A stretch of DNA of 64,000 bases from Candidatus Gottesmanbacteria bacterium (GTDB lineage: Bacteria; Patescibacteriota; Microgenomatia; UBA10105; UBA927). How positions within the stretch are numbered: the stretch's first letter is position 1; each line of letters starts with the position of its first letter. The notes below the pieces were generated by a model, which worked only from the letters and a program-made list of their open reading frames with translations, had not been told where the DNA came from and ran no database searches. The stretch spans positions 704,696-768,695 of the forward strand of contig CAWBPL010000002.1 in assembly GCA_963790805.1 (NCBI GenBank), read 5' to 3'. Positions 1 to 61,470 of the stretch are shown piece after piece. The translations under genes were made by a program, and so were the position numbers.

Positions 1-657
1 GTGAAATTAAAACAGGGTAAAATGAGCAGCCGTCTTGGCAATGTCGTTTTGGGTGAATGGCTTATCGATGAGGTGAAAAAAGAAATCAATGAGGTGTTGT
101 TAAAGAATAACGTAAAAGGGGAAGAAACTGATAACAAAGAAGTCTCTCGTAAAACTCGAGATTTCGAGTCTGAAACAACAGACTCTCAAGCTGAAACGGT
201 AGCAATTGGGGCAATTAAATATTCCTTTCTGAAGGTCTCGACACCCAGTGAAATCGCGTTTGATTTAAAGGAATCCGTTAACATCAACGGTGACTCCGGA
301 CCGTATTTGCAATATACGTATGCGCGATGCAAAAGCGTGATGCGCAAAGCCGGTATAGAATCAGTTGAAAATATCGGATCGATACGAACGTTGAATCCCG
401 AAGAACGCGCCATCATACGTCTCATTATTCAGTTTCCGGACGTTGTTTCCGATGCGGCTTCCCGATTTGCGCCGAATGCATTGTGTACCTATCTCTTTCA
501 ACTGGCGCAGGCATTTAATCTGTTTTATGCGAAACACAGCATCATGGGAGCCACGAAAGATTCAGTTAAACCCCGTTTAGCCCTCACTGCAGCAACTGCG
601 CAGGTCATTAAAAACGGATTATATCTTCTGGGCATCAACACGCTTGAGCGGATGTAA
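1..657 (+). CDS. argS: arginine--tRNA ligase, C-terminal part (5' end lies outside the window)
   Basis: The ORF is open from the window edge. It contains DSGPYLQYTYARCKSV and a DALR-type anticodon-binding helical C-terminus ending ...LGINTLERM, followed by TAA at 655-657. Confidence 0.9.
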   Translation: MKLKQGKMSSRLGNVVLGEWLIDEVKKEINEVLLKNNVKGEETDNKEVSRKTRDFESETTDSQAETVAIGAIKYSFLKVSTPSEIAFDLKESVNINGDSGPYLQYTYARCKSVMRKAGIESVENIGSIRTLNPEERAIIRLIIQFPDVVSDAASRFAPNALCTYLFQLAQAFNLFYAKHSIMGATKDSVKPRLALTAATAQVIKNGLYLLGINTLERM

Positions 658-704
658 TGCGAGAAGACGTACTTCTGGTAAATCAATCGTAAAATTGCGG
701 AGAA

Positions 705-2447
705 CTAGTGTATAGTCCTCTCGTACATTTCAAACCAGCGGATATCATCGACAGCGCTTTTTATGTCGTCTTTAAACCATTCTTTTTGCGGATTTCCGGT
801 TGCCAGTAATCGCCCTTTGCTATATATGCTGATTTCACCTTTCGGTAATGATCTTATGGTGTAGCGTGTTGCTTCTGCTTCTTTTAGGCCGCCCATCGTC
901 GTGACGTTATAAACAGTGACAAACATACCGGGCTGATTCCTGATGGTGCGGGGTTGAAAAACGGCAACAAATGGCTGGTATGCCGGACGTCCATGTTCGG
1001 GATCGAGCTCAGGATAATACACTCCAACGCCATTTTTTCCGGCTCTTTTTGCTGCATACAACGCCAGATCAACCTGCTTATCTAACTCCTCCATAGTGGG
1101 GACGGGTCGATAGAATCCGGGCCGGACAACCATACCGACGCTTACGGTTACCGGAATGGTGTTTTCCTTTGTAACAATGGGTTTACCGCTTATAGATTCA
1201 CATAAACCCAGTGCAACTGTAAGTCCCTCTTCTCCGTCAATGCCACCGGAATACCCTTTAAACTCTTCACCGCCGACTCTGGCGATAATATCTGATTTAT
1301 GCGGCAGCTGCTCTCTGAGTCGAAACGCCACCTCTTTCAGAACCCCATCGCCTTCCATATGGCCCATGCTATCGTTCACGCCTTTAAAATCATCAAGATC
1401 GAGAAGAAAGTACACAGATGGCCGGCCATTACGTCTTTCAACTGTGTCGACGATATCTGTTGTTGCATAGAATGTCCGCCTGTTGGGCAAACCTGTGAGC
1501 GAATCGATTCTTGCCTGTTCCTGCAGCTCATCGTGCAGAAGGGCATTATTGACAGCTGAGCTTAATATTTTTGCAATGATCGCGATATCGTCAATGTCAT
1601 CGGGAGTAAAATTATCCGGTGTATAGCTGTTAATATTCAAATATCCCACTGTGACGCCATCTACGATGAGCGGTGCTCCCAGATATGCGCGTATATTTTT
1701 TTTGGTTCCCGAAGAATTCCAGTCGGCGGAGGCGGCAGTGTCATTAATCAGAAGCGGTTTTTGGGATGTTTTCATCGTCTGGAGTGTTGCCCATTTGTCC
1801 GATGTGGCGGAGCTTTCGCGTGGTGAATTGCCGATTTCGTGACTTTTGGAATTCCATGATTTGTTTACCATCAGGGCGCCTTCTTCATCTATCAGCATAA
1901 GATTGGCGCTATCATACGGGATGATTGTTTCCAGAGCACCGTCGGCTAAAAGCGCGATGACATCACCGAGTGTTTTAGGTCCGGCCAGTTTTTCGGCAAT
2001 CGCTGCCCGTGCTTGGGCTTTGCGTTCATCCGTAACATCACGGATTTCGAATTTGACGCCGGCCAGACTGTCCATACTCGGCTGTGCGTTTGGGGGTAAA
2101 ACGAGTTTGGTTGCAACCTGAACAATTCGTCTGGCACCATTGGGGAGCGTGACCTCAAACTCCGGCTGTTTTGCTTCCTTGCCCCGATGAATGTTCAGGG
2201 CATATCGGGCTGCTTTGAAAAAAACATCCCGTCCTTCCGTTTTCGGCATAAAGTCCAATACGTTATATTTTTTCATTTCGTCAGGGGTCTGTATGCCTGC
2301 TTCCCCGAGGGCTCGTGCATTGATGTCGAGAATATCTCCCTCAAGATTGACAATAAAAATGGGTTTTTCTACCTCCTCGAAAGATTCGTGGTGTTTGCCT
2401 ATATATGTTTGAAGAACTTCGCTGTTTGCGCTGCTATCCACACTCAT
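705..2447 (-). CDS. PAS/GAF sensor diguanylate cyclase (GGDEF domain)
   Basis: 580-aa ORF. It has RIDSLTGLPNRRTF and a GGEEF active-site motif. A GAF-like segment (GAPLIVDGVTVGYLNINS) and an N-terminal PAS-like segment precede them. A C-terminal extension of about 100 aa has unknown function. Confidence 0.85.
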   Translation of the reverse strand: MSVDSSANSEVLQTYIGKHHESFEEVEKPIFIVNLEGDILDINARALGEAGIQTPDEMKKYNVLDFMPKTEGRDVFFKAARYALNIHRGKEAKQPEFEVTLPNGARRIVQVATKLVLPPNAQPSMDSLAGVKFEIRDVTDERKAQARAAIAEKLAGPKTLGDVIALLADGALETIIPYDSANLMLIDEEGALMVNKSWNSKSHEIGNSPRESSATSDKWATLQTMKTSQKPLLINDTAASADWNSSGTKKNIRAYLGAPLIVDGVTVGYLNINSYTPDNFTPDDIDDIAIIAKILSSAVNNALLHDELQEQARIDSLTGLPNRRTFYATTDIVDTVERRNGRPSVYFLLDLDDFKGVNDSMGHMEGDGVLKEVAFRLREQLPHKSDIIARVGGEEFKGYSGGIDGEEGLTVALGLCESISGKPIVTKENTIPVTVSVGMVVRPGFYRPVPTMEELDKQVDLALYAAKRAGKNGVGVYYPELDPEHGRPAYQPFVAVFQPRTIRNQPGMFVTVYNVTTMGGLKEAEATRYTIRSLPKGEISIYSKGRLLATGNPQKEWFKDDIKSAVDDIRWFEMYERTIH

Positions 2448-2520
2448 TCTTTCATCCTAGCACAAGGCTTTGACAAAAGAAAAAAAGGAAAAGAGGATAT
2501 ATATACAAAAGAGTGTCTTT

Positions 2521-3081
2521 TTACTTGACGGGAATGGCTTGTACGACATTCCGCAGCGAATCCAGAAGTCCTGCACAGGTATAGAGAGTAAGCGTTTCTG
2601 TTTTTGTAGGAGTTAACAATTCCGTATGACCGGTCGTCACCCATTCGGTGGAAGCGACTTTGTAGCTATGGAGTGATCCATCAGTTGCTCGTATGTCAAT
2701 CCGGTCGCCCACCCGTACGTTTTCCAGTTTTCCGAAGAGATTGGGGGTATTATGCGCGTAGATAATGATGTTGCCGGCCTGTCCGGGTACTGCCGATTCA
2801 CGCACATGGTTGGCGCTTGTTTGAGATACAGCCCATGTGCCGTTTATTTCTCCGGCCTCAACAATCGGCAGATTGATACTGTTGCCGATCGTGATATGGA
2901 TGGGGTAGGGCCGCCGCGTGGCGGGTTCTTTGGCATATTGGACAAGGATGGTATTAGAGAGGCTGATAGCCTGATTGTAGAAGTACTGATGCACGCCCCA
3001 GAGTGCCATAAGAAGGCATCCTGCGCCTATTAGGAACAGTGGAAGCCATGAGATGCGGTTGGGTTGATGAGAGTGGTCCAT
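2521..3081 (-). CDS. sortase family transpeptidase
   Basis: 186 aa with an N-terminal TM helix. It carries the catalytic His context NIIIYAHN, the TLxTC-type motif LTLYTCAG and a downstream Arg (LRNVV). Confidence 0.8.
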   Translation of the reverse strand: MDHSHQPNRISWLPLFLIGAGCLLMALWGVHQYFYNQAISLSNTILVQYAKEPATRRPYPIHITIGNSINLPIVEAGEINGTWAVSQTSANHVRESAVPGQAGNIIIYAHNTPNLFGKLENVRVGDRIDIRATDGSLHSYKVASTEWVTTGHTELLTPTKTETLTLYTCAGLLDSLRNVVQAIPVK

Positions 3082-3095
3082 GGTCTATTTCGGGC

Positions 3096-3272
3096 ACGCG
3101 TAACCCTATCATATCATTTTTACGTCAGATCGCGTACGAAACGGCATAGTGCTGGGACCCGTTCGGTGTGCTCAAGGTGAACTTTGCAGTTTCTTTCCAT
3201 CCTCACTAAATGAACGTTTGCGATTGGGAATTGACTCTACAATTCTCGCGCAAACGTTCAGGTTGTCCGCAC
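3096..3272. repeat. palindromic interspersed repeat, family E copy 1
   Basis: Shares the blocks ACGCGTAAC, GGGACCCGTTCGGTGTGCTCA, ATCCTCACTAAATGAAC and GTTCAGGTTGTCCGCAC with the reverse complement of 61331-61470. The internal hairpin differs in sequence but not in form (GTTTGCG..CGCAAAC here, CCCCGCCG..CGGCGGGG there). Confidence 0.75.
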
Positions 3273-3312
3273 TATGGTTTTGCACGCGATCCTCACGAGG
3301 CTTTCAAGGGGT

Positions 3313-3474
3313 GGCGCGGGTTGAGGGGCTCCCATCGAGCGCCCGCAGTCTCGCATTACTACGAATTACGTGAATAGGATATAAGAGGTTGTTTTGTGAC
3401 CAGAAGACAATAGGTAATATTTAAGCAGGTTTGCGGGACGAGGACGTCGGATGGGAGAAAACCCGCGCCAGTCC
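3313..3474. repeat. palindromic interspersed repeat, family A copy 1 (long hairpin)
   Basis: GCGCGGGTTGAGGGGCTCCCATCGAGCGCCCGCAG ... GCGGGACGAGGACGTCGGATGGGAGAAAACCCGCGCCAG. The two arms are mutually complementary. The same arms recur at 38931-39090 and 48901-48973. Confidence 0.8.
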
Positions 3475-3480
3475 TTGCTT

Positions 3481-3520
3481 TAAACAAAAACCAAAAGGAG
3501 CCCTTTTCAGGGCTCCTTTC
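3481..3520 (-). terminator. rho-independent terminator candidate for the 3542-4198 gene
   Basis: On the minus strand the sequence is AAAGGAGCCC-TGAAAA-GGGCTCCTTT, a perfect 10-bp stem, followed by TGGTTTTTGTTT. It lies about 20 nt after the stop codon. Confidence 0.7.
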
Positions 3521-3541
3521 CAAGTTCAATTTATGTGCGTA

Positions 3542-4198
3542 TTAAACGCTTAATTTTTTCTTGATGATCATCGCAATACCGCTTACAGTGGAAAGTCCAC
3601 CCATAGCGCCGACGACGTTCATAAGCATTTCATCAGCAACACCGGTGCCTGCAAATTCGGTTGTGGCACCCAAGACCTGTCCCTGTGGAGCTGCTGTGCA
3701 TGACGGACAGCTTGATCGACCGTCACTTCGTCCGTCTGATCGTCCATCGCCGGGACCACCCGGATTTGATGGAGGCTGAGTCACAACCGGCGTCGGGCTC
3801 GGCGTTACGGTCGGAGTCGGACTTTCACAAGGATTTTTGTCCTTGTTAGAGTTAAAGCTATATGTGACTTCTCCGCCATGATTCTGACACGGATCTACGG
3901 TTGGCGTAGGAGTCGGTGTGTTGTGATCATGGTCGTGGTCGTGGTCATCGCCTTTGTCGCCACCATTGTCGCCACCTTGGTTTCCACCATTATTGCCACC
4001 GTTATAGCCTTGATCGCCACCTTGGTTTCCACCATTTCCACCTTGGTTACCTCCCTGATTACCACCTTGGTTTCCACCTTGGTTACCAAAATCGGAAAAT
4101 GCCGGTTTAACTGAAACCGCGAGCGATGTGCCAACCATGGCACCAACAATTACTACAATACCAAGAACACGAAGCATTTTATTTTTCATAAAAAACAC
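3542..4198 (-). CDS. secreted low-complexity surface protein with a C-terminal sorting-signal-like tail
   Basis: 218 aa. It has a signal/TM N-terminus, (GGNQ)n repeats, a DHDHDHDH tract and PT-rich linkers. The C-terminus reads TTEFAGTG-VADEMLM-hydrophobic-KKKLSV. The gene is adjacent to a sortase. Confidence 0.6.
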   Translation of the reverse strand: MFFMKNKMLRVLGIVVIVGAMVGTSLAVSVKPAFSDFGNQGGNQGGNQGGNQGGNGGNQGGDQGYNGGNNGGNQGGDNGGDKGDDHDHDHDHNTPTPTPTVDPCQNHGGEVTYSFNSNKDKNPCESPTPTVTPSPTPVVTQPPSNPGGPGDGRSDGRSDGRSSCPSCTAAPQGQVLGATTEFAGTGVADEMLMNVVGAMGGLSTVSGIAMIIKKKLSV

Positions 4199-4310
4199 TT
4201 TTTGGCAGGTGGTTTATACGTTGCGCGAAATTATATCACACTGTGTCAAATAGTCAAGTAAGAGTATAGAAGAGCATCATTATTGTATGCCTTTATGAGT
4301 TTTTTTACGA

Positions 4311-4419
4311 CCTGCTCAAGACAAAATTTTCTGGCTCCGCTGCTCGCAATAGCTTCACTTTTTATCAGGTTCTTCGTTTTAAGCTCGGGAAGCGAGCTGC
4401 GAAAATTTTATCTTTTCGC
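4311..4419. repeat. palindromic interspersed repeat, family C copy 1
   Basis: GACAAAATTTTCTGGCTCCGCTGCTCGCAATAG ... AGCTCGGGAAGCGAGCTGCGAAAATTTTATC. The arms are complementary and a homologous copy lies at 6851-6960. Confidence 0.7.
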
Positions 4420-4495
4420 ATGTCCGTTGACGTCTTTCCGCGTATTTGAGCAGCTCTTATAAGTCGTATTTTTATCGTGTTATACTTGGTATGCC

Positions 4496-5341
4496 ATGCG
4501 AACATCAGGGAAATTTTTGTTTTGGGCGAGCGGGGTGTTGTTTGTCATATTTCTCCTCGAATTGGCTTCGTGGCTCCATCCGGTCATGGCGCAAGGACTT
4601 CAATTTAACATTGCCCGGACACTGACGATTGATGACAAAGGGGCTGTTGATGGAGACATAGCTACGTTGATTTCAAAGGTAGAAACGCTTGCACGTTCAA
4701 CGAAAGCCTATGATGAGCACATGTACGGCGTACTTGAGGCAGATCCCGTCATGGTATATAGGACTCTTCCCACGCTTGCGGTAGCCCGTGACGGTGAAGC
4801 TGCGGTTAATGTAACCTTACTGGGTGGCCCGATTGCAGTTGGGGATTATGTGACCAGTTCTCCGATTGCCGGTAAAGGTCAGAAGGCTGAAGGAATTGCC
4901 GGCTATATGCTTGGCGTGGCACTTGAGAATTTTGATGGAAAAGGAGCGACAGCGAGCGCTGATTATTCTGGGAAAAAGTACGCAATGGGGAGAGTTAAGG
5001 TGTCGATTGGTATCGGGCCCGCATCGCCCATCATGACACAGGCGGCAGGGGGATTTCTGGGCACACTAAAGCAGATTTCTACCGCAATATTATTTAATAT
5101 TTCAACGAGTAAACAAACAGAGCGGATTATCCGGTATATTTTGGCTGTTATTATCGCGGTCGTGATTTTCTATATAAGCTACCGCACGTTCGGCCGCAAC
5201 GTAACCATGGGGCTTGAGGCAATCGGCAGAAATCCGCTCGCTAAAGGTTCGATTCAGGCCATGATTACCTTAAACATTATTCTTCTTGCAATCTCCTGTA
5301 TTGCGGGGGTCGCTTTAGCTTTGGTGATTATTAGTTTGTAG
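4496..5341 (+). CDS. membrane protein: signal peptide, ~190-aa external domain and a C-terminal helical hairpin resembling ATP synthase subunit c
   Basis: 281 aa. The C-terminal part ...GLEAIGRNPLAKGSIQAMITLNIILLAISCIAGVALALVII resembles the c-subunit loop (E-G-I-A-R-Q-P-E) plus helix 2, but helix 2 has no Asp/Glu. The gene lies directly upstream of the atp cluster. Confidence 0.5.
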   Translation: MRTSGKFLFWASGVLFVIFLLELASWLHPVMAQGLQFNIARTLTIDDKGAVDGDIATLISKVETLARSTKAYDEHMYGVLEADPVMVYRTLPTLAVARDGEAAVNVTLLGGPIAVGDYVTSSPIAGKGQKAEGIAGYMLGVALENFDGKGATASADYSGKKYAMGRVKVSIGIGPASPIMTQAAGGFLGTLKQISTAILFNISTSKQTERIIRYILAVIIAVVIFYISYRTFGRNVTMGLEAIGRNPLAKGSIQAMITLNIILLAISCIAGVALALVIISL

Positions 5342-5356
5342 CCACGAGATTCTCCC

Positions 5357-5481
5357 GCGTGATGCGCGCTCGCGAACGAAAATTTTGATGCGTCTTCAGT
5401 TTCAAGCGCCTCTTCTCCATATGCTTAATCCTTAAGAGAAAGTGAAGCCGCACAACATTTTGTTCGCTCGACGCATCGCGC
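5357..5481. repeat. palindromic interspersed repeat, family B copy 1
   Basis: The reverse complement aligns along its length with 36173-36317 (GCGCTTGAAACTGAAGACG.ATC.AAATTTTCGTT.GCGAGC and CGGCTTCACTTTCTCT). The outer arms GCGTGATGCGCG...CGCATCGCGC are complementary. Confidence 0.8.
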
Positions 5482-5532
5482 TTTTTTACCCAGTCTATAG
5501 ACAAGCCATGCAAACTCTCCTAAGATAGAATC

Positions 5533-6243
5533 ATGGATGCGATTACTGCCTATTCCATTCTCTTCGGCGTCCTTGTTGTTTCTCAGATCCTGACGCTCTT
5601 TTTAGTCATTGGTATCAGACGGAAATCTGCTAAACCACAGGAAGGATTATTCCGTGAATCGCAGGCCAAGACTCACAGCATCATCTACAAGTCCATTCAG
5701 CAGGCGAATAAAATCCTCGTTGCGGCAGAACTTAAGGGTCTTCAGCTTCTCTCAAAGCAAAAAGTAACAAGCGGCGAGCTCACTGATCAATTTAACGCAC
5801 ACCTCGCTACGATCGAAAAAGCACTGGAAGATCAGCTGGAGCGAAACGCTAAGCATGCTGAGGAAACCTATGGTGAGTTTATAACAGGTGCCGAGGCATC
5901 GATTAACAGCCACATTGAAGCAAACCAGAAAATGCTTGAGGAAAAAGCGCAGGCCATGATCGAGCGAACCGAGAGTCTTTTAACCAAGTTTACGGCCGAC
6001 GTTGAAGCAAAGGTCAAAGGTGATGTCGAAAAGGAATTGGTCATGGCTTCACAGGAGATTGAGCAGTACAAACAGAATCGCATGCGTGTCGTTGATGAGC
6101 GCATTGTCGATATTCTGGAGAGTGTGCTTCGCGTCGTTTTGGATAAAAAGATGAGTTTAGCCGACCAGAGCGAGCTTATTTATAAGGCGCTTGAAGATGC
6201 CAAGCGGGAACACTCGTTTTCATCAACAACCAAAAGCTCATGA
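5533..6243 (+). CDS. atpF: F-type ATP synthase subunit b-like (N-terminal TM helix plus long coiled coil)
   Basis: 236 aa with a single N-terminal TM helix followed by a charged helical region. Its stop overlaps the next start (ATGA at 6240-6243). It occupies the position expected for subunit b. Confidence 0.55.
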   Translation: MDAITAYSILFGVLVVSQILTLFLVIGIRRKSAKPQEGLFRESQAKTHSIIYKSIQQANKILVAAELKGLQLLSKQKVTSGELTDQFNAHLATIEKALEDQLERNAKHAEETYGEFITGAEASINSHIEANQKMLEEKAQAMIERTESLLTKFTADVEAKVKGDVEKELVMASQEIEQYKQNRMRVVDERIVDILESVLRVVLDKKMSLADQSELIYKALEDAKREHSFSSTTKSS

Positions 6244-6758
6244 CAGAAGATCAGCTCGTCACCACCATGCTCGCGTCCAGTTTTATGAAGGCTGATTTAC
6301 TACGCCGGATCAGGCTGGTGCGTGAGTTTTCGGAGCAGCGGTTTTTTACCCCTTCAGGCAAAAAAGAGCTTCCGGAATTTTATACGTTCGCCAACGTTTC
6401 CGAGGAGGATCAGAAGGTGTTAAACGGGTGGGGGAAAGATTTTTTCAGTTCGTTTACGAAAGAAAATGCATATGATTTACTTGAAAAGATTGCGGCCAAA
6501 ACCAAGGATTTGCCTGCAATTAATCTCTACGTTCCCATTAATCCCGATGCAAATGAGGCGGGGAAGCTCGGCGCATGGTTTCGTGCGAATGTCGACAAAT
6601 TTATTCTTATAGAAGTTCATGTCGATTCTTCGACGTTTGGCGGATGCGCATTTGCTTGGAACGGGGTGTACTACGATTATTCTCTGCGACATTATATGCA
6701 TAGAAAAATGGATGGAATCAGAAAAGTTTTAGATGAATTTACGAAGGAAAAAGAATGA
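6240..6758 (+). CDS. atpH: F-type ATP synthase subunit delta (OSCP-like)
   Basis: 172 aa. The C-terminal VDSSTFGGCAFAWNGVYYDYSLRHYM matches the delta/OSCP signature (vD.sliGG..i..gd.v.D.S.r..L). It occupies the operon position before alpha. Confidence 0.6.
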   Translation: MTEDQLVTTMLASSFMKADLLRRIRLVREFSEQRFFTPSGKKELPEFYTFANVSEEDQKVLNGWGKDFFSSFTKENAYDLLEKIAAKTKDLPAINLYVPINPDANEAGKLGAWFRANVDKFILIEVHVDSSTFGGCAFAWNGVYYDYSLRHYMHRKMDGIRKVLDEFTKEKE

Positions 6759-6788
6759 AAGGTCATAATGTGTATGCCTATTTTATTG

Positions 6789-7042
6789 ACGATACAAGGA
6801 GGTATGCTTTTTGCCCAGCACCGTCACGCGCAGGAGCTCTGAAGACGCATTGTTGCTCGTGACAAAATTATTTTGATCCGCTGCTCGCAATAGTTTATCT
6901 GTCCATATATCGGGATATTGCTTAGCTCGAGAAGCGATCTGCAATAATTTTGTCACTCGCCCGTATGAGGCCCTGAGTTTTCAAAAAAGCCTCAAGCCTT
7001 CTTGACGGATGCGCACAAAAAGCATACCGACGACAGTATCGC
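6789..7042. repeat. palindromic interspersed repeat, family C copy 2 nested in an outer inverted repeat
   Basis: The inner part (6851-6960) is homologous to 4311-4419. The outer arms GATACAAGGAGGTATGCTTTTTG (about 6792-6814) and CAAAAAGCATACCGACGACAGTATC (about 7016-7040) are complementary. Confidence 0.7.
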
Positions 7043-7075: not shown

Positions 7076-8598
7076 ATGCCAACACCAACACCAACGCCAA
7101 TGAAACGAGCCAAGTTTACGATGCCGCCGCCGGCCGAACAGGAAAAAAAAGCGGGTAAGATTATCCCGACGGTCGGCGATAAAGAAGTAGGCTACGTGGT
7201 TTCTACGCAGGATTATATTGTCATCGTGGAAGGGCTTCCCTCGGCCCGTCTATACAACATTATCGTGACAAAAAACGGCGGTCGGGCGATGGTGTCGGCC
7301 TTGGAAAAAGATCGCATCGAAGCGCTTATGCTGGATTCCGAGCGGCCGAAGCCGGGTGATTATTTTGAGCTTTCGGACTTCGGACTACGACTTCCTCTTA
7401 ACGTCGACCTTTTCGGCCGCATGATTAATCCTCTGGGTATGGCGCTCGACGGCAAAGCCGGATTGCCGCCGGGAGGCGAACCGCTTGATCTTGATATCGT
7501 GGCTCCAGGAATTGACGGCCGTGCGGCCGTTACGGAGCAGTTCTACACCGGTCTTACGGTCGTTGATACGCTTCTTCCTGTCGGCAAAGGCCAGCGGGAG
7601 CTTATTATGTGTGAGCCGCGAAGCGGAAAAGAACAGTTTTTCCTTGACGTGATTCTTTCGCAAAAAACGCAGAACCGCGTCTGCATCTATGCCGCGATCG
7701 GGCGAAGCGAACTTGAAGTCAAACGGTTTTCGGAAGATATCAAAACCATCGGCGCTGATACGTATACCATTATCGTTGCCGCAACATCCAGCGAATCGGC
7801 GCCTATGATTCAGATAGCGCCGTCTGTCGCTTCGGCCTTAGCGGAATATTACCGGAATCTGGGCCGCCATGTTCTTTTAATTCTTGACGATCTGGCCACC
7901 CATGCAAAATACGCGCGTGAGATTTCACTTCTTGCCGGCCGGATTCCCGGCCGCGAGTCGTATCCTGCCGATATTTTTTACCAGCACTCGAGCATTGTGG
8001 AGCGGGCAGGTAATTTTAATGATCATTATCACAACGGTTCGATTACGATGCTGCCGACTATTGAAACCAACATCGAAAACTTCACCAACCTCATTCCGAC
8101 CAACGTCATGTCGATGACGGACGGCCATATTTTGTTCTCCGCAAACCTGAGGGCACAGGGTGTGTATCCGGCTATTGAGGCTGACCGCTCCGTCACCCGC
8201 GTCGGACGCCAGACGCAGACGTTTATTCATAAGGTGCTTTCCGATCGTGTCAGGTTATTACTTGCCGAATACCACGAGCTCGAGCGCTACGGCCGGTTCG
8301 GCAGCGAGCTTTCCGCAGAGACGCAGCTCAAAATTAAGCGGGGAAAAGTGGTTGAAGAACTTCTCAAGCAGGATCCGATGTCGTCCATCAGCCCCCAAGC
8401 GCAGATTGTCATGCTTTCACTCGTATTCACGGGATTTTTCGATAAAATGGATTTAGATTCCCTAAGGACACTCAAAAAGAAAGTCGTTGCCACACTGCAA
8501 TCTAGCACGTATAAGACGGTCATGGATGCGACCAAAACAGCGAAGCTGGATGAGCTCATCACGCAATTAAAGACACAGTTAAAACCTTTGGAGGATGC

Positions 8599-36172: not shown

Positions 36173-36317
36173 GAGCGCGATACGTGCGAGCTAACAAAAT
36201 TTTGTTCGGCTTCACTTTCTCTTTAGAAAAACGTGTCTGGACGGGTGAGCGCTTGAAACTGAAGACGAATCTAAATTTTCGTTTGCGAGCAACAGAAGAG
36301 CGCGACCGTTATGCGCG
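36173..36317. repeat. palindromic interspersed repeat, family B copy 2
   Basis: Aligns with the reverse complement of 5357-5481 over about 140 nt. Confidence 0.8.
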
Positions 36318-37605: not shown

Positions 37606-39882
37606 ATGTCTTCTCAGGATCATATTCGTAACTTTGCCATAATCGCCCATATAGATCACGGGAAAAGTACCCTTGCGGACCGTTTGCTGGAAATTACCCA
37701 TACGGTGGCTATGCGCGACATGCAGGCACAGATCCTTGACAGCAACCCTATCGAGCGCGAGCGGGGAATTACGATAAAGCTGGCGCCGGTACGGATGCAT
37801 TACAGTCGCGGGGATAAGGGATTGGTATTAGGTATTACGCAGAAACCAAATGTAGTTTCCCCTAATACGAAATACGAAACCCCTAATACGATTGAGAATT
37901 ATATTCTCAATCTTATAGATACTCCCGGACACGTTGATTTTGGCTATGAAGTGAGCCGGTCGCTTGCGGCTTGCGAAGGCGCCATACTCGTTGTTGACGC
38001 GACGCAGGGCGTGCAGGCGCAGACTTTAGCCAATCTCCATCAGGCACGGGCTCACAACCTTACGATTATTCCGGTTATCAATAAAATCGATATGCCGCAC
38101 GCACGCATTTCGGAAACACGCGAAGAATTGCGGGCGCTGGATTTTCGCGATGAAGAGATGATAGAAATTTCCGCAAAAACCGGAGAAAATGTTGAAAAAG
38201 TATTGGAGGCAGTGATAGAAAAAATTCCTCCGCCGACCGGAAATTCTGAAAAACCGTTGCGGGCTCTGATATTTTCTTCACAGTATGATACCCATAAAGG
38301 AGTAGTTATTTTTGTACGAGTTGTTGATGGTACTTTACCTTTTGATACACATACGAGTATTCGCTTTATGTTTTCAAATGCCTCAATTACTCCGATAGAA
38401 GTTGGTTTTTTCATGCCTCAAATGTTGGCATCTGAGGCGATTAAAACTGGAGAAGTTGGTTACGTTGCAACCGGTTTGAAAGATGTCCGGTTCGCAAAAG
38501 TAGGCGACACGGTGACGGTAGGAAGGGTCGTCAACGCCACTGTACAGCCGCCTACGGCCCGCGAGCCGCTAGCGGGCTATAAGGAGCCTAAATCGATGGT
38601 ATTTGTGAGCCTGTTTCCAATACAGACTGACGCATTCAGCCGTGCACGCGAAGCTATGGAGAAATTGCGCTTAAGCGACTCGGCATTTAACTTCCGGCCG
38701 ATTTCGTCGCTCGCTTTAGGCAACGGTTTCCACTGCGGATTTTTGGGACTTCTGCATGCCGAAATCGTGCAGGAGCGCCTGTCGCGGGAATTTGATTTGA
38801 ATATGATTGCAACCGCGCCGTCTGTCGAATATCATCTGACCATCAAATCCGGTGTGTCGCTTTCCAAATTAGGCCTGACGGCATCAAATATAATTGATGA
38901 AGCCATGCGGGAAGAAGGCGGGTCGCGGGTGACGCGGATTGAGGGGCTCCCGTCGAGCGCCCGCAGCCCCGCTGCTACAGGAGACACAGAGCAGGAAAAT
39001 TCCGGTGTGAGTGCGAACGAAAAAACTCGACAAATCAAACAAAAGGAAACGGGCGAGGACGTCGGACGGGAGAAATCCGCGGCAGGACCCGACGTTCGCG
39101 CGGCTGAGGTCGTGAACGAACATTTAGATCCGTCTTCAGTTCTCTCGCGAAATCAGAGTGTCTCATCCATACAATCATTCTCGCTCGCAAATGAATCCGG
39201 ACAAAATGTTGTTCACTCCCCGCCGCGTGGTACTACCGTTGCTATCCAATCGGCCGCAGAATATCCGGATCCGACCGTGATTGAGGGTGTCCGCGAACCC
39301 ATTATGGAAGTGAAAATTTTTACGCCGAAACAATATGTCGGTGCCGTTATGCAACTATCTGAGGAAAAGCGGGGAGAGTATATTGATCTTAAATACGTCG
39401 GAGAGCAGGCGGAATTTACCTATCTTATCCCGCTTTCGGAAATGATTGTCGACTTTTTTGACAGGCTCAAGAGCGTTTCTGAAGGCTATGCCAGCCTTGA
39501 TTATAATTTTTTTGAATATCAGGCGGTGAGCGTCGCGAAAGTCGACATACTGGTCAATAAAGAAAAAGTCGATGCACTCTCGTTTTTAGCGGTGGAAAGT
39601 CAGGCCCGCCATCGGGCGATTGCTATTGTAGAGCGCCTCGCCGACGTTATTCCACGCCAGCAATTCCAGATTCCGATACAGGGGGCGATCGGCGGACAGG
39701 TAATCGCCCGAAGCGACGTCAAAGCATTTAGGAAAGACGTCATCCAGAAGCTCTACGGCGGTGACCGTACGCGCAAAGACAAACTTCTCGAAGCGCAGAA
39801 AAAAGGAAAAGAACGAATGAAATTAGTCGGGCGCGTCGAAATTCCCCAATCTGCTTTCTTTGAGGTGTTAAAGAGAGAATAA
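37606..39882 (+). CDS. lepA: elongation factor 4 (LepA) carrying two in-frame insertions
   Basis: IRNFAIIAHIDHGKSTLADRLL, DTPGHVDF, NKID, the LepA-specific C-terminal domain (DFFDRLKSVSEGYASLDYNF) and the tail KKGKERMKLVGRVEIPQSAFFEVLK. At 758 aa it exceeds the usual ~600 aa. Extra segments lie at about 37826-37900 and about 38850-39250. Confidence 0.95.
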   Translation: MSSQDHIRNFAIIAHIDHGKSTLADRLLEITHTVAMRDMQAQILDSNPIERERGITIKLAPVRMHYSRGDKGLVLGITQKPNVVSPNTKYETPNTIENYILNLIDTPGHVDFGYEVSRSLAACEGAILVVDATQGVQAQTLANLHQARAHNLTIIPVINKIDMPHARISETREELRALDFRDEEMIEISAKTGENVEKVLEAVIEKIPPPTGNSEKPLRALIFSSQYDTHKGVVIFVRVVDGTLPFDTHTSIRFMFSNASITPIEVGFFMPQMLASEAIKTGEVGYVATGLKDVRFAKVGDTVTVGRVVNATVQPPTAREPLAGYKEPKSMVFVSLFPIQTDAFSRAREAMEKLRLSDSAFNFRPISSLALGNGFHCGFLGLLHAEIVQERLSREFDLNMIATAPSVEYHLTIKSGVSLSKLGLTASNIIDEAMREEGGSRVTRIEGLPSSARSPAATGDTEQENSGVSANEKTRQIKQKETGEDVGREKSAAGPDVRAAEVVNEHLDPSSVLSRNQSVSSIQSFSLANESGQNVVHSPPRGTTVAIQSAAEYPDPTVIEGVREPIMEVKIFTPKQYVGAVMQLSEEKRGEYIDLKYVGEQAEFTYLIPLSEMIVDFFDRLKSVSEGYASLDYNFFEYQAVSVAKVDILVNKEKVDALSFLAVESQARHRAIAIVERLADVIPRQQFQIPIQGAIGGQVIARSDVKAFRKDVIQKLYGGDRTRKDKLLEAQKKGKERMKLVGRVEIPQSAFFEVLKRE
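38931..39090. repeat. palindromic interspersed repeat, family A copy 2, inside the lepA coding frame
   Basis: GACGCGGATTGAGGGGCTCCCGTCGAGCGCCCGCAG ... GGGCGAGGACGTCGGACGGGAGAAATCCGCGGCAGGACCC. The arms are the same as at 3313-3474, with a compensatory A>G / T>C change. Confidence 0.8.
39095..39220. repeat. family B-related repeat segment inside the lepA coding frame
   Basis: CGTGAACGAACATTTAGATCCGTCTTCAGTT matches CGCGAACGAAAATTTTGATGCGTCTTCAGTT at 5371-5401. GGACAAAATGTTGTTCACT resembles the other family B arm. Confidence 0.6.
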
Positions 39883-48156: not shown

Positions 48157-48849
48157 TTAAATATTCAATCCCTGCTCATCGACAAGGTTGGCAAAAATAA
48201 GAAGCCTTTGTGCTGTGCTTCCGGGCGGCCAGCAGGTTTCAAGAATCAGGTTCTTTTTACCGGCAGAGGGGACAAGGTATTGGGTTGCAGTTGAGGAGAC
48301 CACCTGTTTATCGGTGATCTGGTAGGAATAGCGTACCCCTTTATATATAAGGATGACTAAATCGCCGTTATCGAGGTTTTTGACGAGGTAAAAGACGGCA
48401 TTGAGATCCTTGACGAACCAGTCATAATTGGTCGAGTGGGAAAACAGGTAGACCGTCCCATTCTGGTCCGGTAGGAAGGATGTGGAAGCCTGCGCAACGC
48501 CGTTTAAGAGTGCCTTGTCATACTGGTCCGGCTTGGCAGGATCGACATTTGCAACAACAGGGGCGTTTATGCCTATTTTGGGTACGATAATCGAAAAGTC
48601 CTCGCTTGCCGGAGTTATCGTGCTCCCATCAGGGGCTTTAAGCGGCTCAAAAACCACAGGTACGGATTTGGGAAGTTCCGGCTTAGGGGTCTCAAGCGCC
48701 TCGGCAACAGCCAATTGTGCACGGCTGGCTATATACCCTGCCTCGAGCCGTATATTGGGCGTAAACGGTCCGACGATGCCGCCTAACCCCAATGCCAGAA
48801 GCATGAGTCCCAAAAATTGGGAAACCGGCACAGGCATGCGGAAGGTCAT
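48157..48849 (-). CDS. sortase family transpeptidase (start moved to the internal Met)
   Basis: MTFRMPVPVSQFLGLMLLALGLGGIV is the TM anchor. His context is TVYLFSHST. The Cys motif is LILETCWPPGS, followed by Arg (QRLLIF). The track's 5' extension to 49110 runs through repeat copy A3. Confidence 0.75.
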   Translation of the reverse strand: MTFRMPVPVSQFLGLMLLALGLGGIVGPFTPNIRLEAGYIASRAQLAVAEALETPKPELPKSVPVVFEPLKAPDGSTITPASEDFSIIVPKIGINAPVVANVDPAKPDQYDKALLNGVAQASTSFLPDQNGTVYLFSHSTNYDWFVKDLNAVFYLVKNLDNGDLVILIYKGVRYSYQITDKQVVSSTATQYLVPSAGKKNLILETCWPPGSTAQRLLIFANLVDEQGLNI

Positions 48850-48900
48850 GCTTCTTGAATGGAGTTTAGAAATCCTTTTAGTGTTAAACAGCGTACGGGT

Positions 48901-48973
48901 GACGCGGGCAGAGGGGCTCCCAAGAAGGGGTCCCCTTGTGGGTGTTCTTGGGAGAAAGCCCGCGGCAGGACCC
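48901..48973. repeat. palindromic interspersed repeat, family A copy 3 (short form)
   Basis: GACGCGGGCAGAGGGGCTCCCAAGAA-N18-TTCTTGGGAGAAAGCCCGCGGCAGGACCC. The flanks match copies A1 and A2. The stem is a perfect 10 bp (CTCCCAAGAA/TTCTTGGGAG). Confidence 0.75.
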
Positions 48974-49233
48974 CAAGTGTGATTGGTAGGGAGTAAGTTG
49001 ACGAACGGCACCTCGGGAATAGCCTGAATAAGCACGGTTTTCGTACACGCACTGTCCGTACAGTTTGTATGGTTGTAGCAGTATTCGTAAATGACCTGCC
49101 AAGAGTTCATAGTGTAGGGCGAAATTATACACTATAGGTCAAGAAAGAGCAAATAAGCCACGCTGATTTGTACGGCGCATATTGTATAGAATTGTGGACA
49201 GGTTTATACTATTGGTGATTATTTTTTGAATAT

Positions 49234-56501: not shown

Positions 56502-56552
56502 GTTTTGGGGAAAATTACTATCGGAAGATAGTGCGTATTATTTTGTCTTTAG

Positions 56553-56625
56553 TCGGGACGGGCAGATTTGAACTGCCGACCTCTCGGTCCCGAACCGAGC
56601 GTTCTACCAACTGAACTACGTCCCG
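56553..56625 (-). tRNA. tRNA-Pro (anticodon CGG)
   Basis: Hand-folded on the minus strand. Acceptor: CGGGACG/CGTCCCG. D arm: GTTC-AGTTGGTA-GAAC. Anticodon arm: CTCGG-TTCGGGA-CCGAG. T arm: GGCAG-TTCAAAT-CTGCC. The discriminator is A and no CCA is encoded. Confidence 0.85.
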
Positions 56626-56667
56626 CGTATTGGTATTCTAACACAAAAACCGATACAATAATCGCGC

Positions 56668-56739
56668 GCCCCTATAGCTCAACGGATAGAGCAGACCCGT
56701 CCTAAGGGTAAGATGAGGGTTCAATTCCTTCTAGGGGTA
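56668..56739 (+). tRNA. tRNA-Arg (anticodon CCT)
   Basis: Hand-folded. Acceptor: GCCCCTA/TAGGGGT (G1-U72 wobble). D arm: GCTC-AACGGATA-GAGC. Anticodon arm: GACCC-GTCCTAA-GGGTA. T arm: GAGGG-TTCAATT-CCTTC. No CCA is encoded. Confidence 0.8.
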
Positions 56740-56752
56740 CAAAGAGGTGGGT

Positions 56753-61259: not shown

Positions 61260-61330
61260 TCCGTTTTTCACGTTTGCCACCCGTAAAAATAAAGCGGAGA
61301 TTATTGAAAACCGTGCGCGTAACCATGTTG

Positions 61331-61470
61331 TGGACAACTTGAACCCCGCCGCTAGTCGTATTGAAATATAAAGACTGTAACGGCGGGGTTCATTTAGTGA
61401 GGATTGAAAATATCTTCATGATTCATTATGAGCATACCGAACGGGTCCCAACAACATGTTGTTACGCGTA
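61331..61470. repeat. palindromic interspersed repeat, family E copy 2 (reverse orientation)
   Basis: The reverse complement shares the conserved blocks of 3096-3272. Confidence 0.75.

What the first reader, a model, noticed from the sequence alone, without database searches (positions are those of the whole stretch)
3313..3474. Compensatory base changes between copies of family A support a selected hairpin
The inner stem reads as follows in the three copies.
- 3313-3474: CTCCCATCGA / TCGGATGGGAG.
- 38931-39090: CTCCCGTCGA / TCGGACGGGAG.
- 48901-48973: CTCCCAAGAA / TTCTTGGGAG.

The A>G change on one arm is matched by T>C on the other, and the third copy swaps four positions on both arms. The outer flanks (GCGGG...GAGGGG and GGGAGAAA..CCGCG) stay constant. 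The loop varies from 18 to about 90 nt. Pairing is conserved while sequence is not, which is what a functional DNA or RNA secondary structure would show.
Basis: seen in the sequence. Interest (0 to 1): 0.6.

Follow-up and report, generated by a model that had tools for sequence, protein, structure and literature searches.

The report
Hairpin repeat that inserts inside genes
The three "family A" copies belong to a small hairpin-forming repeat that is scattered through the genomes of ultra-small (CPR/Patescibacteria) bacteria and often sits in frame inside essential protein genes, much like the Rickettsia palindromic elements, so its conserved pairing is real but marks a probably mobile, selfish element rather than a host RNA gene.

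Summary
All three copies exist on the + strand, and their stems differ by compensatory changes. About 23 further copies from metagenome contigs extend the pattern: 96% of stem cells are paired, 16 of 23 pairs change on both sides, and no shuffle reaches these values.

The element is an imperfect hairpin with three helices and conserved asymmetric internal loops. It comes in two forms:
- a short form of 81 nt (27 codons);
- a long form of about 165 nt.

It matches no Rfam family. The window comes from a 1.22-Mb Patescibacteria contig.

Copy 2 lies in frame inside lepA. In other genomes the element lies in frame, in both orientations and four reading frames, inside LepA (two loops), LeuRS, a UvrD-like helicase, Tgt, ComEC and glycosyltransferases. 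About half of the copies are intergenic, and none disrupts a gene.

Short copies are 95–99% identical between genomes whose lepA DNA is only 68–77% identical.

Best reading: a non-autonomous palindromic mobile element that tolerates translation, analogous to RPEs. Its hairpin is kept either by selection for mobility or by arm-to-arm templated correction.

Unusual features: no target-site duplication, flanks that vary in sequence yet complement each other, and no transposase in the window.

I class it as a new member of a known kind, of moderate interest.

The parts
3305..3477 (+). Family A copy 1, long form, intergenic. It lies between the sortase gene 2521-3081 (-) and the terminator of gene 3542-4198 (-). 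Helices: P0 3305-3309 / 3473-3477, P1 3314-3321 / 3461-3468, P2 3329-3338 / 3447-3457, then the inner helix CCCGC/GCGGG.
   Evidence: Sequence; fold -77.4 kcal/mol, z = -5.5; repeat families D9 and D10; covariance-model match at 40.9 bits; homologous along its whole length to other long forms.
38925..39092 (+). Family A copy 2, long form: 164-nt core plus 2 nt on each side, 168 nt = 56 codons. It lies in frame inside lepA and is translated as RVTRIEGLPSSARS...GEDVGREKSAAGP.
   Evidence: A related long copy sits at the same lepA position in L141, with 4 of the 7 P1 pairs changed on both sides.
48895..48975 (+). Family A copy 3, canonical short form: 77-nt core 48897-48973 plus 2 nt on each side, 81 nt. 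It is intergenic, just upstream of the sortase gene, whose real start is near 48846 (-). Helices: P1 48903-48909 / 48958-48964, P2 48917-48926 / 48945-48954. The apical loop 48927-48944 reads GGGGTCCCCTTGTGGGTG.
   Evidence: Model match at 102.7 bits. It is 76/77 identical to the copy in L128. The sortase domain maps to 48160-48846.
37606..39882 (+). Host gene lepA (elongation factor 4), 758 aa against about 600 aa in homologs without insertions. The hypervariable loop between 'SKLG.T.S' and 'IQSA.E.PDP' carries copy 2 followed by a family B element.
   Evidence: the stretch containing this loop, measured between conserved motifs, is 41-168 aa in 120 homologs. In the AlphaFold2 model, residues 434-538 have pLDDT below 50 and no secondary structure.
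39092..39223 (+). Family B, a second and unrelated repeat with inverted ends. It lies directly after copy 2 and is also read through in frame in lepA. Other copies: 5370-5474 (+) and 36188-36309 (-).
   Evidence: A roughly 30-36-nt arm of B also abuts the 3' end of family A in L104, L132 and L112.
3493..3520 (-). Intrinsic-terminator-like hairpin with a T-tract, belonging to gene 3542-4198 (-). It places copy 1 downstream of a transcription stop.

Best explanation
Family A is a non-autonomous, palindromic, probably mobile DNA element of CPR/Patescibacteria.

Anatomy. It is one long imperfect hairpin:
- P0: RCGGGT / ACCCGY
- internal loop: GR / RCAGG
- P1: CGCGGGY / RCCCGCG
- internal loop: AGAGGGG / AAA
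- P2: CTCCC plus 5 or more variable bp
- apex: a conserved 18-nt loop in the 81-nt short form, or a further roughly 90-nt helical extension in the long form.

Shown:
- It is dispersed, and about half of the copies are intergenic.
- The other half lie in the middle of conserved genes, always keep the reading frame and never carry a stop.
- Five of its six reading frames lack stops.
- The canonical length is 27 codons.

Inferred:
- In genes it is simply translated as a disordered surface loop, as in Rickettsia palindromic elements.
- The hairpin is the feature that its unknown mobilising enzyme recognises, probably on folded single-stranded or cruciform DNA. The invariant unpaired loops would be the protein-contact sites.
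- Only copies that keep the pairing continue to spread, and arm-to-arm templated repair may add to this. That is why compensatory changes are seen.
For: Repeat and structure:
- Three copies lie in 73 kb of one genome.
- About 23 more lie in low-GC contigs, one of them (L073) labelled Patescibacteria.
- The structure is conserved with covariation in all three helices.

In-frame position inside Pfam-confirmed domains:
- LepA, LeuRS editing domain, UvrD_C, TGT, Competence/ComEC and GT2.
- Both orientations occur (about 7 same, 6 opposite) and four reading frames are used.
- The same two LepA loops are hit repeatedly, in both orientations.
- Presence varies among LepA homologs, and L142 carries an internally deleted remnant.

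Lengths and context:
- In-gene copies, counted as core plus 2 nt on each side, are 81, 84, 87 or 168 nt.
- The ten ORFs checked beside seven intergenic copies, including both neighbours of four copies, are distinct genes, so none of those copies splits a gene.

Spread and strand:
- Short copies are 95-99% identical between genomes whose lepA DNA is 68-77% identical. This implies recent spread or very strong constraint.
- There is no orientation bias relative to genes or GC skew.
- No Rfam family matches.
- The long copies at the same lepA site differ at 4 of 7 P1 pairs, all compensated, while the encoded amino acids change. The constraint is therefore on the nucleic acid, not the peptide.
- On the element's + strand there are 9 G·T cells against 2 A·C cells, a weak hint that one strand folds.

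Analogy: RPEs insert in frame in unrelated genes (review PMC10969869).
Against: - Mobility is inferred, not shown. No filled-versus-empty site pair at high identity was found.
- No target-site duplication is present.
- No transposase or other candidate mobilising gene was found among 39 window ORFs, and no autonomous relative turned up among the 37 metagenome matches.
- Translation of the insert is inferred only from intact reading frames. No RNA or peptide data are available.
- The near-invariant unpaired loops could equally indicate a host-useful function.
- Covariation counts are inflated by the relatedness of copies, and alignment A2 was fitted to the model.
Confidence: 0.75

Rival explanations
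1. The compensatory pattern is not produced by selection. Family A is still a palindromic repeat, but mismatches between its arms are corrected by intramolecular template switching during replication (quasipalindrome correction). A change in one arm is then copied to the other as a single mutational event. This rival concerns only the cause of the covariation and is compatible with the best explanation's account of what the element is.
For: - Almost all variable pairs change on both sides, and very few intermediates are seen.
- Bases just outside the conserved core are complementary for 3 nt or more in 10 of 24 copies, against 6% in the control (permutation p < 5e-5). This holds although their sequence differs between copies with identical interiors, as expected if the palindrome grows outward by templated copying.
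- The extensions look longer in intergenic copies than in coding copies.
Against: - Templated correction should also erase the asymmetric internal loops (GR/RCAGG and AGAGGGG/AAA) and the bulged C in P2. These persist in nearly all copies, including diverged ones.
- G·T intermediates and single mismatches do exist (L073, L113).
Confidence: 0.25
2. Family A is a structured RNA with a function for the host: a small RNA, a cis-regulatory element or an mRNA-stabilising or terminator element. Its fold is under purifying selection.
For: - Strong covariation.
- Highly conserved unpaired loops and apical loop.
- A·G / G·A co-variation at the position flanking P1.
- A 9-to-2 excess of G·T over A·C cells, hinting at one folding strand.
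Against: - The element occurs inside coding sequence of unrelated essential genes, in both orientations and several frames.
- There is no orientation bias relative to neighbouring genes.
- There is no consistent genomic context.
- c1 lies behind a terminator with no promoter-like site nearby.
- No Rfam match.
- Several copies occur per genome.
Confidence: 0.07
3. The in-gene copies are intervening sequences removed from the mRNA by a structure-specific endonuclease plus a ligase, comparable to archaeal bulge-helix-bulge introns. The hairpin and the complementary exon flanks would be the splicing signal, which works in either orientation.
For: - A palindrome presents a similar helix in both orientations.
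- The sequences flanking the element tend to pair with each other.
- The inserts sit inside catalytic domains of essential proteins.
Against: - All 13 or so in-gene copies keep the frame and lack stops, and none was seen in the frame that contains TGA. A spliced element would not need this.
- Lengths are multiples of 3.
- The loops opposite each other (2 nt / 5 nt and 7 nt / 3 nt) do not form a bulge-helix-bulge geometry.
- Half of the copies are intergenic.
- No intron or ribozyme family matches.
Confidence: 0.05

Closest known systems
Rickettsia palindromic elements (RPE; Ogata et al. 2000 and 2002, as summarised in PMC10969869)
   Same: Both are dispersed palindromic repeats of roughly 100-150 nt that can fold as a long hairpin. 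Both are found in intergenic DNA and in frame inside many unrelated housekeeping genes, where they add a peptide without destroying the gene. Both occur in a lineage with a reduced genome and a host-dependent lifestyle.
   Different: - The phylum is unrelated (Patescibacteria), and sequence similarity to RPEs was not tested.
- The short form is only 81 nt.
- It is used in both orientations and in at least four frames. From my own recollection, RPEs are described as encoding one conserved peptide per family.
- It is extremely conserved between genomes.
- Its flanks are complementary to each other.
Classical bacterial MITEs (Correia/NEMIS, ERIC, RUP, Coxiella QMITE1/2; PMC5896051, PMC10969869)
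   Same: Small, non-coding and multi-copy, with imperfect terminal inverted repeats. Occasional in-frame fusions with host ORFs.
   Different: No target-site duplication could be found, and no cognate insertion sequence is known. The whole element, not only its ends, is one hairpin with compensatory evolution.
REP / REPIN elements mobilised by RAYT (IS200/IS605-like Y1) transposases (PMC3116915, PMC2817692, PMC3733652; listed, not read here)
   Same: The structure is conserved rather than the sequence, and no target duplication is made. There is a hint of a strand-specific (single-stranded DNA) hairpin. The size is similar to that of a REPIN doublet.
   Different: - REPs are extragenic by definition, whereas this element is often intragenic.
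- No conserved terminal GTAG or CGTC tag is present. An internal GTAG occurs in one subfamily only.
- The arms are not themselves palindromes.
- No RAYT gene was seen in the window.
PARCELs, palindromic amphipathic repeat coding elements of Mollicutes (PMC2996958; seen as a search result only)
   Same: Palindromic repeat DNA that is translated as part of proteins and is distributed horizontally.
   Different: Going by the paper's title and abstract, PARCELs are intragenic tandem coding repeats in surface proteins. Family A is a single dispersed unit inserted into housekeeping enzymes.

Membership tests
RPE-like protein-coding palindromic repeats | Dispersed repeat present in several copies per genome | tested here: met
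   Three copies in 73 kb of the source genome. One or two copies per 2-15-kb locus in about 20 other contigs.
RPE-like protein-coding palindromic repeats | The whole element is an imperfect palindrome able to form a long hairpin | tested here: met
   Folds; RNAalifold consensus; 96% of stem cells paired across 26 copies.
RPE-like protein-coding palindromic repeats | In-frame insertion into unrelated protein-coding genes that stay intact | tested here: met
   LepA (two sites), LeuRS, UvrD-like helicase, TGT, ComEC, GT2 and membrane proteins. Pfam domains match on both sides of the insert in one frame.
RPE-like protein-coding palindromic repeats | Sequence relationship to the described RPE families, or occurrence in Rickettsia | not tested
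The host here is Patescibacteria, so this is at most an analogue, not a member of RPE-1 to RPE-10.
Classical MITE | Terminal inverted repeats | tested here: met
   The 5' end GGGTGRCGCGGGY matches the reverse complement of the 3' end, GGGTCCTGYCGCGGGY, apart from an asymmetric loop.
Classical MITE | Direct target-site duplication flanking each copy | tested here: not met
   A scan of all boundary offsets (0-7) and lengths (2-8) over 24 copies gave at most 1-2 matching copies per setting.
Classical MITE | A cognate autonomous insertion sequence with the same ends | tested here: inconclusive
   No transposase among 39 window ORFs. None of the 37 metagenome matches showed a long version. Whole genomes could not be searched.
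REP/REPIN-RAYT | Extragenic location | tested here: not met
   About half of the copies lie inside coding sequence.
REP/REPIN-RAYT | Conserved GTAG or CGTC tetranucleotide at the end of the palindrome | tested here: not met
   The ends are GGGTG.../...GGACCC. GTAG occurs only internally (GGGTAGAGG) in one subfamily and is GCAG, GTTG or GCCG in others.
REP/REPIN-RAYT | A RAYT (Y1 transposase) gene in the genome, flanked by REPs | not testable with these tools
   Only 73 kb of the 1.22-Mb genome could be read. No such gene lies in the window.
Known structured RNA families (Rfam 15, including group I/II introns, ribozymes and riboswitches) | Match to a covariance model | tested here: not met
   The only matches at gathering score in the window are two tRNAs. 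Permissive searches of c3 and c1 gave only chance-level hits.
Spliced intervening sequence or intron | Fixed orientation relative to the host transcript, with no requirement for an open frame | tested here: not met
   Both orientations occur. Every in-gene copy is open and a multiple of 3 in length, and no split gene was found.
Intein | Hint / intein splicing domain in the inserted peptide | tested here: not met
   The inserts are 27-56 aa, and Pfam finds only the host domains.

The most novel reading that the evidence does not exclude
Family A may move by a structure-directed mechanism not yet described for bacterial repeats. Two versions are possible. In the first, the hairpin inserts without target duplication into, or creates, short palindromic junctions of arbitrary sequence. 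That would explain complementary flanks around otherwise identical copies. In the second, the in-gene copies are cut out of the mRNA by a helix-specific endonuclease and ligase. Either way, the element would have evolved to be harmless inside essential genes and to spread horizontally across CPR lineages.
Probability: 0.15. Interest if true: 0.8.

Novelty: new member of a known kind. Interest (0 to 1): 0.5.

Why it matters
In-frame palindromic repeats in housekeeping genes were presented as a peculiarity of Rickettsia. Finding the same behaviour in Patescibacteria, another lineage with tiny genomes and a host-dependent lifestyle, suggests a recurrent outcome of genome reduction.

Consequences:
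- It helps explain the variable lengths of CPR proteins. LepA ranges from 597 to 770 aa here.
- It gives annotators a concrete signature for 'odd' inserts and for spurious ORFs.
- The element is nearly identical across genomes whose genes have diverged by about 30%, so it is a candidate marker of recent DNA exchange among CPR bacteria.
- The lack of target duplication and the complementary flanks point to a mobilisation mechanism worth identifying.

Tried and rejected
- Genome contigs pattern scan. The 18-base pattern was too permissive: 103 hits, almost all chance matches in high-GC genomes.
- Peptide-level searches. A concatenate of five reading frames against 5.8 billion proteins gave one marginal hit. 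A 31-aa window peptide against 1.84 billion representatives gave none. The peptides are too short for significance, so the number of host proteins could not be counted this way.
- Target-site duplication scan: none found. Two apparent 6-nt direct repeats (L112, L138) are chance. In L138 they sit in different reading frames, so removing the element together with one repeat would break the gene's frame.
- Orientation against GC skew as a test for IS200/IS605-like strand bias: 11 positive and 12 negative loci, no signal.
- Empty-site comparison. The nearest LepA relative of the window is only 77% identical. The one close pair, P0025 and P0024 at 91%, differs by a decayed remnant rather than a clean insertion. 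L143 turned out to be the same genome, 100% identical.
- Rfam, at gathering score and in permissive mode: nothing.
- A search for a mobilising enzyme in the window by Pfam: none.
- Ideas rejected on reading the sequence: hammerhead (no CUGAUGA core on either strand), HDV-like fold, SRP or 6S RNA, integron attC, bulge-helix-bulge motif. The motifs or topology do not fit.
- Literature searches for a CPR description of such elements: nothing found. One search was uninformative, and PMC186582 is not held.

Full report
OBSERVATION

The repeat finder reports them as families D9 and D10.
- c1: core 3309-3474.
- c2: core 38927-39090.
- c3: core 48897-48973.

The quoted inner-stem strings are exact. 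The A>G change of c2 is matched by T>C. c3 carries a different but perfectly paired version (AAGAA/TTCTT).

- The 'constant' outer helix also covaries: CGCGGGT/ACCCGCG, CGCGGAT/ATCCGCG and CGCGGGC/GCCCGCG.
- A third, outermost helix exists (RCGGGT/ACCCGY).

Single-sequence folds give the same nested hairpin in all three copies, with z = -5.5 for c1. A sensitive self-comparison aligns c1 with c2 over 166 nt (E = 1e-12). No further copy lies in the window (model search with filters off), nor in 9 kb to its left (L143, same genome).

MORE COPIES

One scan of public genomes was largely wasted on chance hits in high-GC genomes. A stricter scan of metagenome contigs returned 37 loci. About 23 of them are low-GC (0.40-0.50) contigs with a true copy.

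The short form is highly conserved. Written as 81 nt, its consensus is GC GGGTGG CGCGGGT AGAGGGG CTCCCAAGAA GGGGTCCCCTTGTGGGTA TTCTTGGGAG AAA ACCCGCG ACAGG ACCC GC.

P2 variants seen:
- AAGAA/TTCTT
- ACGAA/TTCGT
- GC(C)GGCC/GGCCGC
- A(C)TGGCC/GGCCAT
- CCTCCA(T)CGGCC/GGCCGTGGAGG
- ATCAATCG/CGATTGAT
- CCCCATCAAA/TTTAATGGGG

Covariation:
- On a plain MAFFT alignment of 18 copies, the named structure has 26 cells changed on both sides against 11.5 in shuffles. No shuffle of 500 reaches this.
- On 26 copies aligned to model R1, 96.1% of cells pair, against 84.9% shuffled and 34-51% when partners are slid. Sixteen of 23 pairs change on both sides. That alignment leans towards the model.
- RNAalifold predicts the same helices independently.

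The long form (c1, c2, L109, L141b, L106b, L135b) is homologous along its whole length. It adds an extended P2, an inner helix (CCCGC/GCGGG, CCCG/CGGG, ATCGC/GCGAT) and a conserved CGAGGA bulge.

The pairing is conserved.

CONTEXT

The window is from a 1.22-Mb Patescibacteria contig. Rfam finds only two tRNAs in the window and nothing at c1 or c3.

c2 is not intergenic. It lies in frame in lepA, which is 758 aa instead of about 600. Among 120 LepA homologs, the stretch containing the loop that carries it measures 41 to 168 aa between conserved motifs. Within that loop:
- P0042 has the long form at the same place and in the same orientation.
- P0002 has the short form in the opposite orientation.
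- P0025 and P0022 have an internally deleted remnant.

Across the metagenome loci the element lies in the middle of long ORFs, with Pfam domains matching on both sides. The hosts are:
- LepA, at a second site;
- the editing domain of LeuRS;
- UvrD_C of a helicase-nuclease;
- TGT;
- ComEC;
- a GT2 glycosyltransferase;
- three membrane proteins.

Orientation is about 7 same and 6 opposite, and four of the six frames are used. Five of the six frames of the element have no stop codon. In-gene copies, counted as core plus 2 nt on each side, measure 81, 84, 87 or 168 nt.

The remaining half of the copies fill short intergenic spacers. The ten ORFs checked beside seven of these copies, including both neighbours of four copies, are distinct genes, for example Polysacc_synt and Wzy_C, or DUF2079 and IleRS. 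None of those copies splits a gene.

An AlphaFold2 model of the window's LepA gives residues 434-538, which cover the family A and family B inserts, pLDDT below 50 and no secondary structure between well-modelled domains. This is weak support for a tolerated surface excursion.

WHAT IT IS

These properties describe a palindromic repeat of the kind first seen in Rickettsia:
- it is dispersed;
- it is a hairpin throughout its length;
- it lies in genes in either orientation without breaking them;
- it hits the same permissive loops repeatedly;
- its presence varies among orthologs;
- decayed remnants exist.

RPEs insert in frame in unrelated genes (PMC10969869). Coxiella QMITEs do so occasionally (PMC5896051).

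Short copies differ by 0-4 nt between genomes whose lepA DNA is only 68-77% identical. That argues for recent spread between lineages or for extreme constraint.

A host RNA gene or regulatory element is unlikely for three reasons. The element has no consistent orientation relative to transcription. It has no consistent context. And c1 sits just beyond the terminator of the upstream gene with no promoter-like site nearby.

An intron-like reading is not excluded but has little support, because every in-gene copy is open and a multiple of 3 in length.

HOW THE HAIRPIN IS KEPT

The constraint acts on the nucleic acid. The two long copies at the same lepA position (window and L141) differ at 4 of 7 P1 pairs. 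All four are compensated, while the encoded residues change: R-I becomes Q-A, and S-A becomes P-V.

Two mechanisms fit.
- Selection: only copies that still fold are recognised by the mobilising enzyme and leave descendants.
- Templated correction between the arms during replication.

The persistence of the asymmetric loops (GR/RCAGG, AGAGGGG/AAA, a bulged C) in nearly all copies favours selection with protein recognition of those loops. The complementary flanks favour some templated copying. The excess of G·T over A·C cells on the + strand (9 against 2) hints weakly that one particular strand folds.

UNUSUAL OR UNEXPLAINED POINTS

- No target-site duplication was found at any boundary setting.
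- Bases just outside the conserved core are complementary to each other for 3 nt or more in 10 of 24 copies, against 6% in a mismatched-pair control (p < 5e-5). Examples are ATGC/GCAT, TGGC/GCCA, GAAT/ATTC and TATGCGC/GCGCATA. This holds although the interiors of those copies are identical.
- An arm of a second repeat, family B, abuts the 3' end of family A in three independent genes.
- There is no orientation bias relative to GC skew.
- No transposase lies in the window.

NOVELTY

Full-text searches found no description of such elements in CPR/Patescibacteria. The kind itself, palindromic repeats translated inside genes, is known. I therefore class this as a new member of a known kind with some atypical features.

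VERDICT

Interest 0.5.

Noticed in passing
window 39092-39223 (+), 5370-5474 (+), 36188-36309 (-); L104 4730-4762; L132 3811-3839; L112 right flank of the element: Family B is a second repeat of about 115-130 nt with inverted ends (CGAACGAAAATTT ... AAAATTTTGTTCG). It is read through in frame in lepA directly after family A. A roughly 30-36-nt arm of it also abuts the 3' end of family A in a UvrD-like gene and at another lepA site in other genomes.
   Followed up: partly
window 3137-3295 (+) and 61305-61466 (-): Family C is a repeat of about 160 nt, 66% identical by BLAST (81% mean column identity in the pairwise alignment). One copy lies immediately upstream of family A copy 1. The other is intergenic, between the WecG-like and starch-synthase-like genes.
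   Followed up: partly
window 13376-about 31000: About 17 kb of collagen-like Gly-X-Y coding repeats with a 9-nt period and 57-61% GC, against about 46% elsewhere. The repeats are spread over several very long overlapping ORFs. The first ORF begins with two Phage_int_SAM-like domains, and ORF 27309-30101 matches the Pfam Collagen family.
   Followed up: partly
window about 37800-37895 (LepA residues about 66-96): A second insert in LepA, in the GTPase domain (GDKGLVLGITQKPNVVSPNTKYETPNTIEN). It is absent from the homolog consensus, and residues 71-94 have pLDDT below 50 in the model.
   Followed up: no
L112 (LepA) and L138 (LeuRS) host proteins: The same proteins carry other repeat-derived peptides of the type QKTENxxxPSSVFRLPSS several times. 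Other LepA homologs carry IASEAKQ...RDD-type peptides in the same loop. These genomes therefore hold several families of in-frame repeats.
   Followed up: no
L111 4324-4443: A family A copy with a 30-nt insertion of a different small hairpin (CCGCCAAAGCCTTGGCG-like) nested in its apical loop.
   Followed up: no
window 4313-4355 and 6854-6896: A 43-nt direct repeat, 84% identical. The two copies lie upstream of gene 4496-5341 and of the ATP synthase genes starting at 7076. It may be a shared regulatory or promoter region.
   Followed up: no
window 56552-56740: Divergent tRNA-Pro(CGG) and tRNA-Arg(CCT) genes separated by 42 nt.
   Followed up: no
L143 (Logan assembly of run ERR11594402): An 18-kb contig from an independent sequencing run is 100% identical to window 1-6891, including copy 1. 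The same strain has therefore been sampled elsewhere.
   Followed up: yes
window 2521-3081 (-) and 48160-48846 (-): Two of the three family A copies lie just upstream of sortase genes, on the opposite strand. With only two cases this may be coincidence.
   Followed up: no
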